From: a virus
Direction: 5' to 3' (one strand)
Virus record (IMG/VR): IMGVR_UViG_3300023311_000098
Coordinates: 134-64,133 of that record
DNA length: 64,000 nucleotides
The notes under the pieces were generated by a model, which was not told where the DNA came from, made no database searches, and saw only the letters and a program-made list of their open reading frames with translations. Made by a program: the position numbers and the translations under genes. Below are positions 8,946 to 25,841 of the stretch, piece after piece. Positions within the stretch are counted from its first letter, which is position 1, and the number at the start of each line of letters is the position of its first letter.

Positions 8946-9416
8946 ATGACAAATAAGATCGTTCCAGAAAAAAAGTGTTGTAAGTGTGGAGAAATAAAAC
9001 CATTTTCCGAGTTCCACAAAAACAGTAGAAACAAAGATGGAAAATGTCCTCGGTGTAAAACTTGCATTCGAGGACAAAATTCAGCAAGAAATAAGTATAT
9101 TTGGCAGAAGAAAAAGAGTGACCCGGACTTTGAAAGAAAGCGTAGAGACTATGTATTAAATTATAATTATGGAATATCCCTAGAGTTTTATGAAATCATG
9201 TTAAGAGATCAAAATGGAATATGTGCAATATGCGGAGCAAAAACAGCATACCCATATTTTATGAAACAAAAGAATTTTTTTGTTGACCACGACCACAAAA
9301 CCGGAAAAGTGCGCGGTCTTTTATGTTACAACTGTAACAAACTTTTGGGAATGGTAAAAGACGATACGGAGTTGTTGGAAAAGCATATAAAGTATTTAAT
9401 AGATACAAAAAGTTAA
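8946..9416 (+). CDS. endonuclease VII-type HNH endonuclease
   Basis: CxxC zinc finger, CAICG, VDHDHKTGKVRGLLCYNCN; opposite strand to its neighbours. Confidence 0.93.
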   Translation: MTNKIVPEKKCCKCGEIKPFSEFHKNSRNKDGKCPRCKTCIRGQNSARNKYIWQKKKSDPDFERKRRDYVLNYNYGISLEFYEIMLRDQNGICAICGAKTAYPYFMKQKNFFVDHDHKTGKVRGLLCYNCNKLLGMVKDDTELLEKHIKYLIDTKS

Positions 9417-10987
9417 TCCTTAGATTTCCCCCATGCTCCAACCTTTGCTTCTTCCTCTTTTTTTTGTTCTGGATTTTTCTGGCCTAAATGAGCAAACCGA
9501 ATACTGCTCCATTTACGAATAGGTGCAATAGACAAACGGGCCCCGGTGGTCGCGGTTATCCGGTCGTCATGGGTATCCTTAGCGGGGAAGGTGTCCAATT
9601 CGCCAAAAAAATTATCCGTCCATTTTCCACGAACCACCCACCAATGTCCTTGCGCCGCCTCCGCGAACCAGTGGTTAGCCGCTTCTACTCTATCTCCATC
9701 CTTCTTGGGGTCGTGCGCTCTCACGGTAAACCCAAATGGCTTTAAGAAATTGGCAATAGCGGCCACTTGGTTCTTACCGCCCGAGGCGGGTTCCTGCTCG
9801 ATATAGATGGGTACTTGTTGTCCATCTACCATGGCGGTATTTCTGATGTTTTCAAGAATTTGATCCCACAACCAATGTCCTCCGGTTTGATCTTCGATGC
9901 AAAAGTTTTCCTTCTTATCGTCATAGGAAACCAAACCACCTATTGTTTCGTCGGGGTCAGTACCAACTTTCTTCTCGGAAGCGGCGAGGTCATAATATCG
10001 AATCCGCCCTCTCCATTCGGGAGCCTTTTCTAAGATGTGCGATACTCCAGTAGTTGGATTGTGGGTAAACCATGTCCTATCACCAAGAGAACCTTCTTCG
10101 TTGGCTGCGATTCCCTCGATCTCGCGCTGTCTCAAATAACCAGACGGGAAGGATGATACCAGTGTAGCGTAAAAGATGGGGTCAAGGTTCTTGCGGTTCT
10201 CTTCCAGGGAAACGTGAAAAGACTCGATTAACTCGCGCCCCTGCATATCGGGGATGTCTTTCAGGAGGTCATAGACTTCTTGAGGAATCTCTTTCCGGTC
10301 GAATAAAGCGGCTATCCAAGAGTCTCTTCCGGCCGGAGTAGTGGTTAAGAACCGTTGGGTATTGGACCCAACGCGTACACCCGCGATAGCGTTCTTCCAG
10401 GCCAGTCCAGTTCTATCTCTACGGGCTTCGTCATACCATAACCAGTTTACGTTATGTCCACGGCCAGACTCGGGGTCACGAAGTCCACGACAATAAAGAA
10501 CGGCTCCATTTATGAAAACGATTGAAAATGGTCTGGTTACATCCCAAGACTCTGACCTTCTGACTCTGTGTTTTGGAATTACCATCTGCCAGGGTATCCA
10601 GCTTCGGAGTTCTGGCCAGGTAGAAGTCTTGAAGTTCTCCAGGTCTGGATTGACGACTATCCCTGTTCTACCTTCACGAATCTTACGAAGCGCTTTCTGT
10701 GCGCCGGCAGAAGTTTTTCCAGATCCTCTACCCCCTTGCATGGCTACAAAAACTCCGGGTGCATTTATGAAACTTAACTGTTCCCCCGCCGGGTCATAGG
10801 GCTTTCCCGCTCCATTTCTGCGAAAGAAGCCATTCTCATCAATATTCCATTTATCTGACCAGGCTATGTTGGCTTTGTCTACTTTAGGTATATCGAGATT
10901 CCTTGCCCTCATCTCTGTAAGTAGGGCAAGTAACTGTCTCTTATCCTTATCACTCAGATCTGTTCGAATCGTCTTGTTCGCTTGCAT
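9413..10987 (-). CDS. terL: terminase large subunit
   Basis: Walker A GGRGSGKT, Walker B WLWYDEA, motif TTTP, nuclease YDLAAS...HDDRI. Confidence 0.96.
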   Translation of the reverse strand: MQANKTIRTDLSDKDKRQLLALLTEMRARNLDIPKVDKANIAWSDKWNIDENGFFRRNGAGKPYDPAGEQLSFINAPGVFVAMQGGRGSGKTSAGAQKALRKIREGRTGIVVNPDLENFKTSTWPELRSWIPWQMVIPKHRVRRSESWDVTRPFSIVFINGAVLYCRGLRDPESGRGHNVNWLWYDEARRDRTGLAWKNAIAGVRVGSNTQRFLTTTPAGRDSWIAALFDRKEIPQEVYDLLKDIPDMQGRELIESFHVSLEENRKNLDPIFYATLVSSFPSGYLRQREIEGIAANEEGSLGDRTWFTHNPTTGVSHILEKAPEWRGRIRYYDLAASEKKVGTDPDETIGGLVSYDDKKENFCIEDQTGGHWLWDQILENIRNTAMVDGQQVPIYIEQEPASGGKNQVAAIANFLKPFGFTVRAHDPKKDGDRVEAANHWFAEAAQGHWWVVRGKWTDNFFGELDTFPAKDTHDDRITATTGARLSIAPIRKWSSIRFAHLGQKNPEQKKEEEAKVGAWGKSKD

Positions 10988-12630: not shown

Positions 12631-12987
12631 TTACCTGTAACTAAAGGCTGGAATTACTCCGCCGCCCCGTCTATTAAACGCGTGGTTTTTGTGAATAAGT
12701 TTATGATGATATGGGCAGACATATACCACATCTCCCTCCCTCTCTTCTCCAAGGCTCCGATAATGTAGGTGATGGGCATTCAAGTGTCTCCCATGCTTAC
12801 CACATCCTTTTACTGCACATAGCCAATTAGCATCTTGACCCACTACGTTTCTAACCCTCTTCCAGTGGTCGCTCTGCAAGTAATCTTGATATTCATCGTG
12901 CCTATCTATCCTTGGCTTAAATACCCAGTCCATTATCAAGAGAGTAATAATTGCCGCCAATGGATCATATCTTTTGTATCTTATCAT
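12631..12987 (-). CDS. HNH endonuclease
   Basis: YLQSDHW..R, C....C, AHHLHY, VCPYHH..H. Confidence 0.85.
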   Translation of the reverse strand: MIRYKRYDPLAAIITLLIMDWVFKPRIDRHDEYQDYLQSDHWKRVRNVVGQDANWLCAVKGCGKHGRHLNAHHLHYRSLGEEREGDVVYVCPYHHKLIHKNHAFNRRGGGVIPAFSYR

Positions 12988-13190: not shown

Positions 13191-13327
13191 TGAGACGGGG
13201 CGGGGCTTGAGTACCCGCTATTAATCTTTGCCGGTAGATTCCTAATAGGTGGACGACTGAGGTCTAATTGTCGTCTTGTTTTGAGACCTTCTACACCTAT
13301 CGCGTGTCCTTCCACGCCGCCCGTCTC
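13191..13327 (-). ncRNA. tRNA-shaped ncRNA with pseudoknotted insert in place of the anticodon loop
   Basis: acceptor GAGACGG/CCGTCTC-A, D-like arm, 7-bp stem, variable arm, T-like arm; TATAAT 7 nt upstream. Confidence 0.75.
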
Positions 13328-13927
13328 GTTCTCTATTATACCCCAATTTGTTCGCATAGCAGGGGGATTTTGTGGAATTCGAGAACCGTAATTTCTGAGC
13401 ACGGTGCTGTGTTTCATCCGCCGCCAGCGTTGCCCAATTCTGGCTTGGGTTGTGTGTGCTGGATGCTGGATGGTGGATGGTGGATGGATGTAGCCAGGTC
13501 CTATGATATGCGCCCATGATGGATCGCTGGGTTATACGCTCTACTTACCGGGTATTCATAATTCATATTCGGAATATTGAATGTGACGTATGTCGTAATA
13601 ATCCAGTCAAATGTGACTATGTGCTCCCGGTCAAAAAGTCGTATCGTTAAAGGGTAGGAGGCAATAAATAAAGAGCTTCTTACACCGAAGCGGGCAAGGG
13701 GGGCAACGGGCAACGGAGAAACCGGGGAGGCTGGGTAGGAGGATGACCAACCACCGGGGCAACCGTCCAGGCGCTAGGCAACGACACGACCAACTGGATA
13801 ACGTATTACTCCCGGTTGGCGGGGCTGTGTACGGCTATAGTACGTGTATAGGCAGGGTAGGGCATGGGTGTGATGAGCGCCCTAGGGAGGTCCGATACTT
13901 GGATGGGTACACGTCTAGCATGAACAG

Positions 13928-14004
13928 CTATTGAACTCGAAACCCAGAGTGACGGAAGATCACCCTCTGGGTAGTATGGTAGTGGCCATACCTGATGAGA
14001 GTAG
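13928..14004 (+). ncRNA. hammerhead ribozyme, type II
   Basis: CTC-GAAA-CCCAGAG..CTCTGGG-TA-GTATGG..CCATAC-CTGATGA-GAG; all core residues and three stems present. Confidence 0.9.
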
Positions 14005-14018
14005 AGAGAGGTACAACA

Positions 14019-14201
14019 ATGATAAAGCTGGAGATTACTACCAAATGGCATCACGACGTTATCCAGGAAACATGCAAGACAATGGCGTCGTCCATTAGAG
14101 CGGCTACATCCGCCCATCCAATTGGATTACATATCACGCTTGACAGGGGTACTGACAAAGAGCGAGGGTATTGTCAAGTGACAAGCATCAAGGTACTGTA
14201 A
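14019..14201 (+). CDS. first early gene, hypothetical
   Basis: SD GAGAGG then ATG 14019. Confidence 0.65.
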   Translation: MIKLEITTKWHHDVIQETCKTMASSIRAATSAHPIGLHITLDRGTDKERGYCQVTSIKVL

Positions 14202-14206
14202 AGTAA

Positions 14207-14277
14207 GGGGAGGCTTGACGGCCTCCCCTCCAAACCAGACAGCACTACAATTCGGTAGTACTGTGTGTTATGGAGGC
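14207..14277 (+). promoter_or_regulatory. repeated structured leader, copy 1
   Basis: GGGGAGGC/GCCTCCCC hairpin, then CACTACAATTCGGTA hairpin, then GGAGG. Confidence 0.6.
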
Positions 14278-14284
14278 AGTAAAG

Positions 14285-14491
14285 ATGGAAGCAACGATTG
14301 AGTTTAGATCCCTTGGTGGTAAGTATAAACGAAAGATTATTGTCAAGCAATCCCACATTAATAACGGGTATGCTATTGACACCACGATAAAGACAGGGGC
14401 ATGGTATACACTTCGCCACCTAGAAGGCTTTCATACATTATCGGAAGCGCTTCTAAGTGCAGCGGAAACCGTCAAGGAATTACAATCATAG
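14285..14491 (+). CDS. hypothetical early protein
   Basis: GGAGG SD, ATG 14285. Confidence 0.7.
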   Translation: MEATIEFRSLGGKYKRKIIVKQSHINNGYAIDTTIKTGAWYTLRHLEGFHTLSEALLSAAETVKELQS

Positions 14492-14653
14492 CATCCCGGA
14501 GGCGGCTGATACCGCCTCTCTGATAGACTGGCAAGCGCAACGCGAGTAGAGCATAAGTCTACCATGTAGCCGCTCAATACCTCCCATAAGCCGCTTACCA
14601 GTCTATCAGACCCCATAACGCGGTTGTGGGGCAAGTAGAATGAGAGGATACCA

Positions 14654-15095: not shown

Positions 15096-15163
15096 GGGGA
15101 GGCGTGGACCTCCCCCCTCTTATAGAGCACACTACAATTCGGTAATGTGCTCTAATCGGAGGC
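15096..15163 (+). promoter_or_regulatory. repeated structured leader, copy 2
   Basis: same architecture and identical 15-mer as 14207..14277. Confidence 0.6.
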
Positions 15164-16416: not shown

Positions 16417-17163
16417 ATGTTAACTAAAACTTTGAAATTTGACGTTGCAACCCTCGACACTCTCAAAGCTATGCAATGGGAGAATGACGGGAAACTAGGC
16501 AAGATTACCGCCCAGCTTGACCGCCCCGCCTATGTCGCAATAAACAAAGCACTTGAGGCAATGGGCGGCAAGTGGAACCGCGGCGCAGGCGGCCATGTAT
16601 TCCCAACAGATCCCCGCCCACAAGTTGAAGGACTGCTCGATTCTGGTAGCCTGACGGTAGACCGGGATGGTTTTTTTGAGACCCCGGAAGAACTGGCGCA
16701 GCTTATGGTACAGCGCGCAGATATTCAGCCCGGAGATTTTGTACTTGAACCCTCTGCCGGACTCGGTGCAATTGCGCGGCACTTCCCATTTTTTGAGAAT
16801 GTTTACATGGTGGAGAAGAACCATCAGCGCATTTGTGAATTAAGAAAAACGTTTCCGCTTGCGAAGGTATGGGAGGGCGATTTTATCACGCTGCCCCTAA
16901 CCCCCGGATACAACAAGATCATAATGAATCCCCCCTTCGAGGACGGGCAAGACATGGCACACGTAAGAATGGCCTATACATTACTGAACCCAGGCGGGCG
17001 GATAGTGGCGATTATGTCCCCTCACGCTTTCTTCGCAAATGACAAAAAGTCTGTAGCCTTCCGGGAATGGTTCACGGGAACCACGGAGGACTTGCCCGCG
17101 GGAACCTTCAAGGCAAGTGGTACAAATGTCATCGCCAAACTTGTTGTAATCGACAAGCCGTAA
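16417..17163 (+). CDS. SAM-dependent amino-(N6-adenine-type) DNA methyltransferase
   Basis: FFETP, VLEPSAGLGAI, IIMNPPF, F..SGTNV motifs. Confidence 0.88.
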   Translation: MLTKTLKFDVATLDTLKAMQWENDGKLGKITAQLDRPAYVAINKALEAMGGKWNRGAGGHVFPTDPRPQVEGLLDSGSLTVDRDGFFETPEELAQLMVQRADIQPGDFVLEPSAGLGAIARHFPFFENVYMVEKNHQRICELRKTFPLAKVWEGDFITLPLTPGYNKIIMNPPFEDGQDMAHVRMAYTLLNPGGRIVAIMSPHAFFANDKKSVAFREWFTGTTEDLPAGTFKASGTNVIAKLVVIDKP

Positions 17164-25582: not shown

Positions 25583-25661
25583 GCGTGAGTTGGGCAATGG
25601 CAGCCCCTCTGACTGTAGATCAGACGCCTCGGCTATACAGGTCCGAATCCTGTCTCACGCA
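25583..25661 (+). tRNA. tRNA-Tyr(GTA)
   Basis: GCGTGAG/CTCACGC-A acceptor, GGGC/GCCC D stem, TCTGA-CTGTAGA-TCAGA anticodon arm, long variable arm, ACAGG-TCCGAAT-CCTGT; no encoded CCA. Confidence 0.9.
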
Positions 25662-25841
25662 CTTGCACCCTAACATTTGCATAACGGGAGCGGCGCATAT
25701 GCCACTGGTGAAATATCCTGGATTGCGGCGGCCCGCTCCCTGAATGCTCTACCTCCGCCGTGGCCCTAAACTATCGGACGGAATGGCGAAACCTATCGAG
25801 CGGCGGAGGTAGAAAGAACGTGACGAATCGGAGGTTTTATT

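What the first reader, a model, noticed from the sequence alone, without database searches (positions are those of the whole stretch)
13928..14018. Consensus type II hammerhead ribozyme at the head of the early operon
Seen: stem II ACTC (13935-38)/GAGT (13999-14002); GAAA 13939-42; stem III CCCAGAG/CTCTGGG; GUA triplet with predicted cleavage after 13973; stem I GTATGG/CCATAC; CUGAUGA 13992-98. Established: this matches the full hammerhead core including the G10.1-C11.1 pair. The 3' strand of stem II abuts the SD of the first early gene (ATG 14019). Inference: self-cleavage creates a 5'-OH mRNA with a 45-nt leader, which could stabilise it or free the ribosome-binding site.
Basis: partly seen in the sequence, partly recalled or inferred. 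Interest (0 to 1): 0.85.

Follow-up and report, generated by a model that had tools for sequence, protein, structure and literature searches.

The report
Hammerhead ribozyme before phage early gene
The reported self-cutting hammerhead RNA motif is really there and very probably genuine, but it is an ordinary example of a kind already described in phages, sitting just before the start of a small gene.

Summary
The window is a complete 64-kb phage genome with terminal repeats.

A descriptor search finds it as the only such motif on either strand. None of 300 shuffled genomes gave one as good.

Rfam's hammerhead models do not report it. The type II model also misses 3 of 4 equally well-formed hammerheads in other viral contigs, so this says little. 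A model built from two of those finds one significant match in the window, this site. Eleven such hammerheads, this one included, show strong compensatory changes.

Most relatives have the same tight layout: stop codon, hammerhead, ribosome-binding site, start codon. The closest relative phage lacks the ribozyme and carries an unrelated first gene in that slot.

The ribosome-binding site is predicted open both before and after cutting, so "freeing the RBS" is not supported. Defining and protecting the mRNA 5' end is plausible but untested.

This scan has noted similar phage hammerheads on other DNA. Verdict: new member of a known kind, modest interest.

The parts
13935..13938 (+). Stem II, 5' strand (positions 11.4-11.1, ACUC)
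   Evidence: sequence; pairs with 13999-14002; descriptor
13939..13941 (+). Core G12 A13 A14
   Evidence: invariant GAA in all 11 aligned hammerheads
13942..13972 (+). Stem III hairpin: A15.1-U16.1 closing pair, 7 further pairs, then an inner 4-5 bp extension capped by GGAA (13954-57)
   Evidence: folds; mean pair probability 0.93 in all contexts tried
13973..13974 (+). Predicted cleavage site: after A17 (13973), before G1.1 (13974)
   Evidence: Position follows from the hammerhead core numbering (established knowledge) applied to the sequence; no cleavage data
13974..13991 (+). Stem I hairpin: 6 Watson-Crick pairs, a U.G wobble and a 4-nt loop; it would be the 5' end of the cut mRNA
   Evidence: pair probability 0.88-0.99; U.G at this position in 7 of 11 aligned hammerheads
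13992..13998 (+). Core C3 U4 G5 A6 U7 G8 A9 (CUGAUGA)
13999..14002 (+). Stem II, 3' strand (10.1-10.4, GAGU)
   Evidence: stem II is only 4 bp, with pair probability 0.6 in isolation and 0.08-0.18 in long contexts
13928..13933 (+). 5' flank CUAUUG, a candidate pseudoknot partner of loop I (UAGUGG, 13980-85); uncertain
   Evidence: 6 consecutive pairs (3 Watson-Crick, 3 G.U), 1 nt from stem II, p about 0.02; the same feature occurs in 1 of 9 other hammerheads (L015b)
14004..14011 (+). Shine-Dalgarno-like GAGAGAGG, 7 nt before the ATG
   Evidence: predicted mostly unpaired
14019..14201 (+). First small gene after the ribozyme (60 aa, no relatives found, no family)
13743..13934 (+). 63-codon ORF whose stop codon abuts stem II; whether it is a real gene is uncertain
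   Evidence: no homologues; codon test inconclusive; AGGAGG lies directly against its ATG
13548..13600 (.). Block conserved with the sister phage, containing the palindrome ATATTC-G-GAATAT (13565-77); probably the operator/promoter region of the divergent operons
   Evidence: 75% identity to L001 4941-4889; no sigma-70 consensus promoter found

Best explanation
Window 13935-14002 (+) encodes a genuine type II hammerhead self-cleaving ribozyme within the rightward transcript of small, early-type genes of an uncultured tailed phage. Once transcribed, stems I and III fold as stable hairpins. The short stem II (ACUC/GAGU) closes the three-way junction, and the RNA cuts itself between A13973 and G13974. 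The upstream product would be an estimated 350-400 nt if transcription starts near the conserved block at 13548-13600. It possibly carries a 63-codon ORF, and it would end in a 2',3'-cyclic phosphate behind the long stem III hairpin. The downstream product begins with a 5'-hydroxyl and the stem I hairpin, followed 12 nt later by the SD and then the ATG at 14019. The likely effect is to detach the downstream message from whatever precedes it, giving it a fixed, hairpin-capped 5'-OH end that RNases sensing a 5'-monophosphate handle poorly. This is what engineered hammerhead insulators such as RiboJ do. Shown: the motif, its non-random nature, its fit to a covarying group of phage hammerheads, and the shared stop-ribozyme-SD-start layout. 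Inferred: transcription of this strand, cleavage itself, and the effect on stability or expression.
For: The core and all three helices are present as read. It is the only descriptor hit in the window, and 0 of 300 shuffles gave one as good. The hammerhead fold costs -24.8 kcal/mol against an MFE of -25.1, and it is the MFE itself in a 301-nt context. Covariance model R1, built from two other viral hammerheads, gives with filters off one significant hit in 64 kb, at 13936-14001 (27.8 bits, E about 7e-6; next best 10.1 bits). With default filters the score is 40.5 bits. Four pattern-only matches without stems I and III score 19.7-21.1 bits, so about 20 bits come from parts not fixed by my search pattern. 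In the 11-sequence alignment, 97.3% of cells are paired against 67.2% in shuffles (0 of 500 reach it), 12 of 17 pairs change on both sides, and slid controls give 29-41%. Layout: in 8 of 9 other hammerheads of this design an ORF starts 10-40 nt downstream, and in 5 of 9 an ORF ends within -2 to +6 nt upstream; in the window the gaps are 16 and 0 nt. Precedents from passages read: in haloviruses HF1/HF2 a hammerhead lies 13 nt upstream of the first early ORF and the mapped 5' end is within 3 nt of the cut site, and clustered prophage hammerheads cleave in vitro and in vivo (PMC3088659). Three type II hammerheads of Desulfovibrio vulgaris cleave in vivo (PMC8782182). RiboJ-type insulators normalise the 5'-UTR, and uncleaved mRNA was modelled as decaying faster (PMC7536230).
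Against: No Rfam hammerhead family reports the site, whether at gathering score, at E<=10 on a 251-nt stretch (roughly 14 bits or more), or with RF02276 on the whole genome. There is no homologous copy. The closest relative phage (TerL 94% identical) has other DNA in this slot, no hammerhead was found in the records of 4 of 4 relatives, and both flanking ORFs have no relatives. Conservation of this particular copy therefore cannot be shown. Stem II is only 4 bp. A competing register (CUC pairing with G8-A9-G10.1, plus 5 further pairs) is the MFE of the 91-nt stretch. Stem II pair probability falls to 0.08-0.18 in long contexts, though 6 of 9 other hammerheads are at 0.04 or below as well. There is no 4-bp-or-longer pairing between loop I and the first 14 nt of the 3' tail, the kind typical of published type II hammerheads; the only 4-bp runs (G.U allowed) reach 14027-30, inside the coding region. 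No sigma-70-like promoter was found, so transcription of this strand is inferred from gene orientation and strand skew. The seed sequences of R1 were found with a pattern taken from this very motif, so part of its score is circular.
Confidence: 0.72

Rival explanations
1. RBS-unmasking switch: before cutting, the ribozyme or its flanks hide the SD or start codon of the gene at 14019, and cleavage frees them and turns translation on.
For: The 3' strand of stem II ends 1 nt before the SD. In the 91-nt MFE an alternative helix extends to 14004, the first base of the SD.
Against: The predicted unpaired probability of SD 14004-11 is 0.72-0.80 in five uncut contexts and 0.70 in the cut RNA. For GAGG 14008-11 it is 0.67-0.73 uncut against 0.48 cut, so the site is no more open after cutting.
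Confidence: 0.06
2. The motif is real, but its job is intercistronic. It separates a translated upstream cistron (ORF 13743-13934) from the downstream genes so that the two messages decay and are translated independently. A ribosome terminating at UGA 13932-34 may cover stem II and gate the cutting.
For: The ORF ends 0 nt before stem II, and 5 of 9 similar hammerheads have an ORF ending within -2 to +6 nt. The ORF was called as a gene on 17 contigs of the protein collection. PMC3088659 proposes processing of long phage transcripts into single-gene mRNAs.
Against: The ORF has no homologue or family. Its AGGAGG lies directly against the ATG with no spacer. Its codon-usage score (-0.10 bits per codon) is the lowest of the in-frame scores, and the test did not discriminate. 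Its G+C content is above that of its neighbours. Ribosome gating is pure inference.
Confidence: 0.25
3. Passenger of a swapped-in cassette: the ribozyme arrived with a block of about 670 nt (13600-14273) that replaces unrelated DNA of the sister phage. It persists as part of a portable junction without a phage-specific role, or is decaying.
For: Window 13600-14273 has no counterpart in L001 4889-4532, while both flanks are conserved. Hammerheads of the same design are flanked by unrelated genes: among 15 flanking proteins no pair scores E<0.01. G+C is higher in 13700-13999 (0.57) than around it.
Against: All core positions and all three helices are intact, which argues against decay. The tight placement before an SD recurs, which suggests selection for a function in expression.
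Confidence: 0.15
4. Chance look-alike or an untranscribed motif with no cleavage in vivo.
For: The Rfam models are silent, there is no homologous copy, no promoter was identified, and stem II is weak.
Against: 0 of 300 shuffled genomes gave an equal motif. Of 49 pattern matches (core plus stem II) in 596 Gb of cellular genomes, 0 have stems I and III, so the full motif does not arise readily by chance. The R1 hit stands about 18 bits above the next best in the window.
Confidence: 0.08
5. One half of a two-ribozyme unit that releases a circular or unit-length RNA, or a ribozyme that also cuts other sites in trans.
For: Clustered hammerheads exist in other phages (PMC3088659; two each on L015 and L016).
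Against: Only one hammerhead of any type was found in the whole genome. The only other parse is a 144-nt type I-like one with stems of 4/3/3 bp, at chance level. The substrate strand has only 2 other matches at 3 mismatches against 1.0 expected, and 9 of 100 shuffles reach 3 matches.
Confidence: 0.02

Closest known systems
Type II hammerhead ribozymes of bacteria and phages (Perreault et al. 2011, PMC3088659; Rfam RF02276)
   Same: Open stem II with stems I and III closed by loops; full consensus core CUGAUGA / GAA / A15.1-U16.1-H17; phage context next to small genes of varying identity.
   Different: It scores below about 14 bits on RF02276. The Rfam consensus, seen aligned to L008, has a 2-bp stem II, a short stem III, a loop I of about 10 nt and a 3' tail that pairs with loop I. 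This copy has a 4-bp stem II, a 31-nt stem III hairpin, a 4-6-nt loop I, A17, and no loop I pairing within the first 14 nt of the 3' tail.
Hammerhead of haloviruses HF1/HF2 (passage of PMC3088659 read)
   Same: A single hammerhead a few nucleotides (13 nt there, 16 nt from stem II here) upstream of the start codon of an early-region gene, producing the 5' end of a polycistronic message.
   Different: That one is a core variant in an archaeal virus, in front of a helicase, with a mapped 5' end. Here the core is consensus, the gene is an unrelated 60-aa protein with no relatives, and no RNA ends are known.
Clustered hammerheads flanking single genes in prophages (PMC3088659) and hammerhead arrays joined to ribosome-binding sites in uncultured phages
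   Same: The stop codon - ribozyme - SD - start codon junction; I re-measured this layout on 9 hammerheads from 7 viral or metagenome loci.
   Different: This phage has one copy only, with no array and no trans sites.
Engineered ribozyme insulators (RiboJ: hammerhead plus hairpin; PMC7536230 passages; Lou et al. 2012 recalled, not read)
   Same: A hammerhead in the 5' leader that removes upstream RNA and leaves a defined, structured 5'-OH leader before the RBS.
   Different: RiboJ is synthetic, is a type III (sTRSV-derived, as recalled) hammerhead, and carries an added 23-nt hairpin after the ribozyme. Here the natural stem I hairpin itself becomes the 5' end.

Membership tests
Hammerhead ribozyme (class) | Conserved core: C3 U4 G5 A6 N7 G8 A9, G12 A13 A14, A15.1-U16.1 pair, H17 not G | tested here: met
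   CTGATGA 13992-98, GAA 13939-41, A13942-T13972, A13973; the core list itself is established knowledge
Hammerhead ribozyme (class) | Three helices around the core, with a 10.1-11.1 pair (usually G-C) | tested here: met
   Stems of 7, 4 and 8 pairs by the descriptor; G13999-C13938; the fold is within 0.3 kcal/mol of the MFE
Hammerhead ribozyme (class) | Site-specific self-cleavage giving 2',3'-cyclic phosphate and 5'-OH ends | not testable with these tools
   No RNA run was listed for this DNA; needs an in vitro or in vivo assay
Hammerhead ribozyme (class) | [quoted passage not shown] | tested here: inconclusive
   No loop I pairing of 4 bp or more within the first 14 nt of the 3' tail. A candidate 6-bp pairing of loop I with the 5' flank 13928-33 has p about 0.02 and is shared by 1 of 9 others. 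U.G caps stem I in 7 of 11 aligned hammerheads.
Type II topology | Stems I and III closed by loops; stem II open, formed by the 5' and 3' ends | tested here: met
   Order ACUC-GAAA-hairpin III-UA-hairpin I-CUGAUGA-GAGU
Rfam RF02276 Hammerhead_II | Score at or above the gathering threshold of 37 bits | tested here: not met
   No hit at gathering score, at E<=10 on 251 nt, or in the whole genome. Control: only 1 of 5 other records scored (31.9 bits), although 4 of them hold descriptor-perfect hammerheads.
Rfam RF02276 Hammerhead_II | Pseudoknot between loop I and the nucleotides just 3' of stem II (majority of published type II, PMC3088659) | tested here: not met
   Best complementarity with the first 14 nt of the tail is 3 bp. 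The 4-bp runs found reach 14027-30, inside the coding region.
Phage hammerheads with ACUC/GAGU stem II (group assembled here) | Significant match to a covariance model built from other members, with covarying stems I and III | tested here: met
   R1: 27.8 bits with filters off; 40.5 bits with default filters against 19.7-21.1 bits for pattern-only matches; covariation. Caveat: members were collected with a pattern taken from this motif.
Phage hammerheads with ACUC/GAGU stem II (group assembled here) | Placement: an ORF start 10-40 nt downstream, and often an ORF stop within a few nt upstream | tested here: met
   Window gaps are 16 and 0 nt; others 8 of 9 and 5 of 9

The most novel reading that the evidence does not exclude
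The site belongs to a phage-borne, Rfam-invisible design of type II hammerhead: 4-bp ACUC/GAGU stem II, 6-bp stem I capped by U.G, and no pseudoknot with the 3' tail. In two of ten cases, including this one, loop I instead pairs with the six nucleotides just 5' of stem II, a mirror image of the published pseudoknot. This design would act as a portable 'stop codon - ribozyme - SD' junction that moves between unrelated phages together with small genes that have no known relatives. Because the upstream stop codon abuts stem II, a terminating ribosome could decide whether the ribozyme folds and cuts.
Probability: 0.2. Interest if true: 0.55.

Novelty: new member of a known kind. Interest (0 to 1): 0.3.

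Why it matters
If it cleaves, this adds one more natural case of a phage using a hammerhead to set the 5' end of an early-side message, the same principle as engineered ribozyme insulators.

It also shows that Rfam's type II model misses well-formed phage hammerheads. Here it scored only 1 of 4 descriptor-perfect examples, and that one below its threshold. Surveys that rely on it therefore under-count them.

The tight stop-ribozyme-SD junction, and its absence from the sister phage, make this a simple system for asking what such ribozymes do for a phage. The biological role of bacterial and phage hammerheads was still called unclear in the 2011 survey (PMC3088659, passages read). My two literature searches for later functional work on phage hammerheads listed none.

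Tried and rejected
Rfam. Searches at gathering score on the whole window, at E<=10 on 13850-14100 and on 13400-14300 gave no hammerhead or other credible family near the site. RF02276 on the whole genome gave none.

Relatives by TerL. Four loci came back. None holds a hammerhead, and only one DNA block downstream of the site matched in the first BLAST.

Relatives by neighbouring genes. The 60-aa gene gave none in viral contigs, and only itself in the protein collection. The second early gene gave none as a single protein. As a two-row alignment it recovered only the L001 contig again. It gave none in metagenome contigs.

Other searches for relatives:
- An exact pattern for this stem III plus core in viral contigs gave 0 matches.
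- blastn of 13600-14500 against GenBank phages gave no match.
- TerL in genome contigs gave none.

RNA evidence. No RNA holder was listed.

Promoter. The sigma-70 scan found none in 13300-14600. A repeated motif, AGGCWGGGTAGG, and two other motifs occur at chance frequency in the window.

Leader. The 13620-13934 leader is not unusually structured (z = -0.31).

Trans-cleavage sites. The substrate strand occurs at chance frequency elsewhere in the window.

Minus-strand ORF 13806-14117 across the site. It has no family and no homologue, so I rejected it as a gene.

Codon-usage test of the 63-codon ORF. It did not discriminate.

Alignment. A MAFFT alignment of nine hammerheads (A2) misaligned stem III, so it was not used for a model. 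I used the gapless two-sequence alignment A3 instead.

They might already contain hammerheads of this design or with a 5'-flank pseudoknot.

Full report
WHAT THE WINDOW IS. The window is nearly all of a 64,133-bp IMG/VR virus record with direct terminal repeats, estimated complete.

- Minus-strand genes run from about 13,400 down to 473. They include a large terminase (9413-10987) and an HNH endonuclease (12631-12987).
- From 14019 rightwards there is a run of small plus-strand ORFs without known families, then a methyltransferase at 16417-17163.
- AT and GC skew change sign near 13,300-13,550.

The finding therefore lies in the roughly 600-nt divergent region between a leftward packaging/structural operon and a rightward operon of small early-type genes. 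"Early" is an inference from gene content.

THE OBSERVATION.

- Stem II: ACTC 13935-38 / GAGT 13999-14002.
- GAAA: 13939-42.
- Stem III: CCCAGAG 13943-49 / CTCTGGG 13965-71, closed by A13942-T13972.
- A17: A13973, so the cleavage triplet is GUA and the predicted cut is 13973|13974.
- Stem I: GTATGG 13974-79 / CCATAC 13986-91.
- Core strand: CTGATGA 13992-98.
- 10.1-11.1 pair: G13999-C13938.

Stem III continues inward for 4-5 more pairs to a GGAA loop (13954-57). Stem I gains a U.G wobble, leaving a 4-nt loop. The order of parts (open stem II, hairpins I and III) is the type II permutation.

IS IT MORE THAN CHANCE?
- I wrote a descriptor requiring CTGANGA, GAAA, U-H and three helices in type II order. 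On both strands of the window it gives this locus only.
- In 300 first-order Markov shuffles of the window, both strands, there were 15 loose hits (stems >=4/3/4) and none with stems >=6/4/7.
- Descriptors for types I and III gave one marginal 144-nt parse with stems of 4/3/3 bp, which I regard as chance.
- A further control came from a scan of 596 Gb of cellular genomes for the pattern "stem II + GAAA ... CUGAUGA + stem II". It gave 49 matches, below my rough uniform-composition estimate of about 130. None of the 49 has stems I and III. The full motif does not arise easily.

THE RFAM RESULT AND WHY IT WEIGHS LITTLE. No Rfam hammerhead family reports the site. This held at gathering score, at E<=10 on a 251-nt stretch, where 13.7 bits already gave E = 5, and with RF02276 on the whole genome.

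As a control I ran RF02276 on five other viral records, four of which hold descriptor-perfect type II hammerheads. Only one scored, at 31.9 bits, below the 37-bit threshold.

The alignment of that one shows what the model expects:
- a 2-bp stem II;
- a 6-bp stem III with a 7-nt loop;
- C17;
- a loop I of about 10 nt;
- a 3' tail that is part of the published loop I pseudoknot.

The present copy has a 31-nt stem III hairpin, A17, a 4-6-nt loop I and a purine-rich tail. It is not a member of RF02276 by score, but it meets the defining features of the ribozyme class.

RELATED SEQUENCES.

No homologous copy exists in what I could reach.
- The closest relative (L001, TerL 94% identical) shares blocks at 13333-13442 and 13548-13600, and again from 14273.
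- Window 13600-14273 and L001 4889-4532 are unrelated. L001 has a different small first gene directly after the shared block.
- No hammerhead was found in the loci or records of 4 of 4 relatives. Their estimated completeness is 94, 16, 50 and 9%.
- The 60-aa gene and the 63-codon ORF found only themselves in the protein collection.

Hammerheads with the same stem II and core do occur in other uncultured viruses.
- Of 8 pattern matches in viral contigs, 4 pass the descriptor strongly: L007, L008, L009 and L012. A fifth, L011, matches by covariance model.
- Of 4 matches to a longer pattern in metagenome contigs, 3 pass: L015, L016 and L017. L015 and L016 each carry a second hammerhead with a different stem II.

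A covariance model built from L007 and L008 alone gave these results.
- Run on the window with filters off, it returns one significant match, 13936-14001, at 27.8 bits and E about 7e-6. The next best is 10.1 bits.
- With default filters the site scores 40.5 bits, in the range of the other hammerheads (31.9-76.1).
- The four pattern matches that lack stems I and III score 19.7-21.1 bits.
- About 20 bits are therefore there by construction, because the seeds were found with a pattern taken from this motif. About 20 bits are independent of it.

On the 11-sequence model alignment:
- 97.3% of cells are paired, against 67.2% in shuffles (0 of 500 reach the observed value).
- 12 of 17 pairs change on both sides.
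- Sliding the partner by 1-3 columns gives 29-41% paired.
- The alignment was fitted to the structure, which favours it.

A U.G pair caps the 6-bp stem I in 7 of 11 sequences, including the window.

LAYOUT.
- In 8 of the 9 other hammerheads, an ORF of 40 aa or more starts 10-40 nt after stem II, usually behind a GGAG-type SD.
- In 5 of 9, an ORF ends within -2 to +6 nt of the 5' edge.
- In the window the figures are 16 nt (ATG 14019, SD GAGAGAGG 14004-11) and 0 nt (ORF 13743-13934, stop TGA 13932-34).
- The flanking proteins are unrelated to one another: among 15 proteins no pair scores E<0.01. Most have no family; exceptions are a RecT-like and an Ant-like protein on L015.

This agrees with the statement in PMC3088659 that the genes flanked by prophage hammerheads "are not constant".

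HOW IT PROBABLY WORKS.

Fold.
- Stems I and III are predicted with probability 0.88-0.99 in every context tried.
- Stem II is only 4 bp. The hammerhead fold costs -24.8 kcal/mol against an MFE of -25.1. That MFE uses a shifted register pairing CUC with G8-A9-G10.1.
- In a 301-nt context the MFE contains the exact hammerhead fold.
- In partition functions, stem II drops to 0.08-0.18. The same weakness is seen in 6 of 9 other hammerheads, and the 2011 survey says stem II is commonly very short.

Products.
- Cutting would leave a downstream RNA that starts with a 5'-OH at G13974 and the stem I hairpin, followed by the SD and the ATG.
- The upstream RNA would end with the stem III hairpin.

Effect on the RBS. 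The SD is predicted unpaired at 0.72-0.80 before cutting and 0.70 after, so I find no support for RBS unmasking.

Likely role. The more likely role is removal of upstream RNA and a defined, protected 5' end.
- If the shared block at 13548-13600, with its perfect palindrome ATATTC-G-GAATAT at 13565-77, marks the promoter/operator region, the piece removed is about 350-400 nt.
- No sigma-70-type promoter was found, and the host is unknown.
- That 5'-OH ends and 5' hairpins slow decay is established knowledge about RNase E and RppH-type pathways (recalled).
- For engineered hammerhead insulators, PMC7536230 states that they normalise the 5'-UTR, and it models uncleaved mRNA as decaying twice as fast.

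Upstream ORF. Whether the 63-codon ORF is translated is open.
- It was called on 17 contigs.
- It has no homologue, its AGGAGG abuts its ATG, and its codon score is inconclusive.
- If it is real, the ribozyme is intercistronic rather than at the head of the operon.

A POSSIBLE TERTIARY CONTACT.
- The published type II pseudoknot (loop I with the 3' tail) is absent. The best pairing with the first 14 nt of the tail is 3 bp. The 4-bp runs found over a longer stretch reach into the coding region.
- Instead, the six nucleotides CUAUUG (13928-33), 1 nt from stem II, can pair with the whole of loop I, UAGUGG (13980-85). That makes 3 Watson-Crick and 3 G.U pairs, with p about 0.02 against shuffled flanks or random window 14-mers.
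- One other hammerhead, L015b, has the same feature with 5 Watson-Crick pairs and 1 G.U (p about 0.03).
- The other eight do not. Two of ten at this level is only marginal, so I report it as a candidate.

COMPARISON WITH WHAT IS KNOWN.
- PMC3088659 (passages read) already describes type II hammerheads as common in bacteria and near prophage genes. It describes clusters flanking single genes, with cleavage shown in vitro and in vivo.
- The same paper describes a hammerhead 13 nt upstream of the first early ORF of haloviruses HF1/HF2, whose mapped mRNA 5' end lies within 3 nt of the cut site.
- PMC8782182 shows three type II hammerheads of Desulfovibrio vulgaris, near phage-like genes, cleaving in vivo.
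- Earlier notes of this scan describe hammerhead arrays joined to ribosome-binding sites in other phages.
- Two literature searches listed no later functional study of phage hammerheads in the held library.

The present case is therefore a new member of a known kind. It is notable only for being invisible to Rfam, for its absence from the sister phage, and perhaps for the 5'-flank pairing.

VERDICT. My probability that this is a genuine self-cleaving hammerhead acting on the rightward transcript is about 0.72 for the whole statement; for cleavage competence alone it is higher. Interest is modest, at 0.3.

Noticed in passing
window 14207-14277 and 15096-15163: Two copies of a leader element before the next genes. 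Each is a GGGGAGG/CCTCCCC hairpin, then a long stem with the identical apex CACTACAATTCGGTA, then a GGAGG SD and the ATG (14285; 15168). The sister phage has similar hairpins at L001 about 4640-4545. This is the subject of another first-reader note (e1-6139242). It shows that the operon carries other RNA punctuation besides the hammerhead.
   Followed up: partly
window 13548-13600 (palindrome 13565-13577); L001 4941-4889: A block conserved with the sister phage (75% identity) containing the perfect palindrome ATATTC-G-GAATAT, followed by two AATGTGAC-TATGT-like repeats. It looks like an operator/promoter region for the divergent operons. No sigma-70 consensus was found by the scan.
   Followed up: partly
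window 13333-13442; L001 5326-5268 and 5096-5006: A stretch including TGGAATTCGAGAACCGTAA that is conserved with the sister phage, where it occurs twice. It overlaps the region another note calls a tRNA-shaped RNA on the minus strand (e1-6139239). Not analysed here.
   Followed up: no
window 13700-13790: A G-rich stretch with four or five GGCAAC repeats (GGGGCAACGGGCAACGG ... GGGGCAACC ... AGGCAACG) inside the leader upstream of the ribozyme. G+C is 0.57 here against about 0.45 nearby. Its meaning is unknown.
   Followed up: no
window 13675-13691 (minus strand): A terminator-like hairpin followed by a T-run on the minus strand, between the conserved block and the ribozyme. It could stop leftward antisense transcripts coming from the early region.
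   Followed up: no
L008 1053-1117 (minus strand): The hammerhead plus the downstream SD of L008 also gives a sub-threshold match (22.8 bits, E 0.11) to Rfam freshwater-2 RNA (RF02980). That consensus is two hairpins followed by AAAGGAGAAA and AUG. Some freshwater-2 members might be related to hammerhead-SD junctions.
   Followed up: no
window 25583-25662: A phage-encoded tRNA-Tyr (anticodon GTA) with a long variable arm. It is the only Rfam hit at gathering score in the window.
   Followed up: partly
L015 (two sites) and L016 (two sites): These metagenome contigs each carry two type II hammerheads. On L016 they lie about 220 nt apart. On L015 they lie about 2 kb apart, and the second follows a RecT-like gene and precedes an Ant-like gene. 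These are examples of the clustered arrangement.
   Followed up: partly
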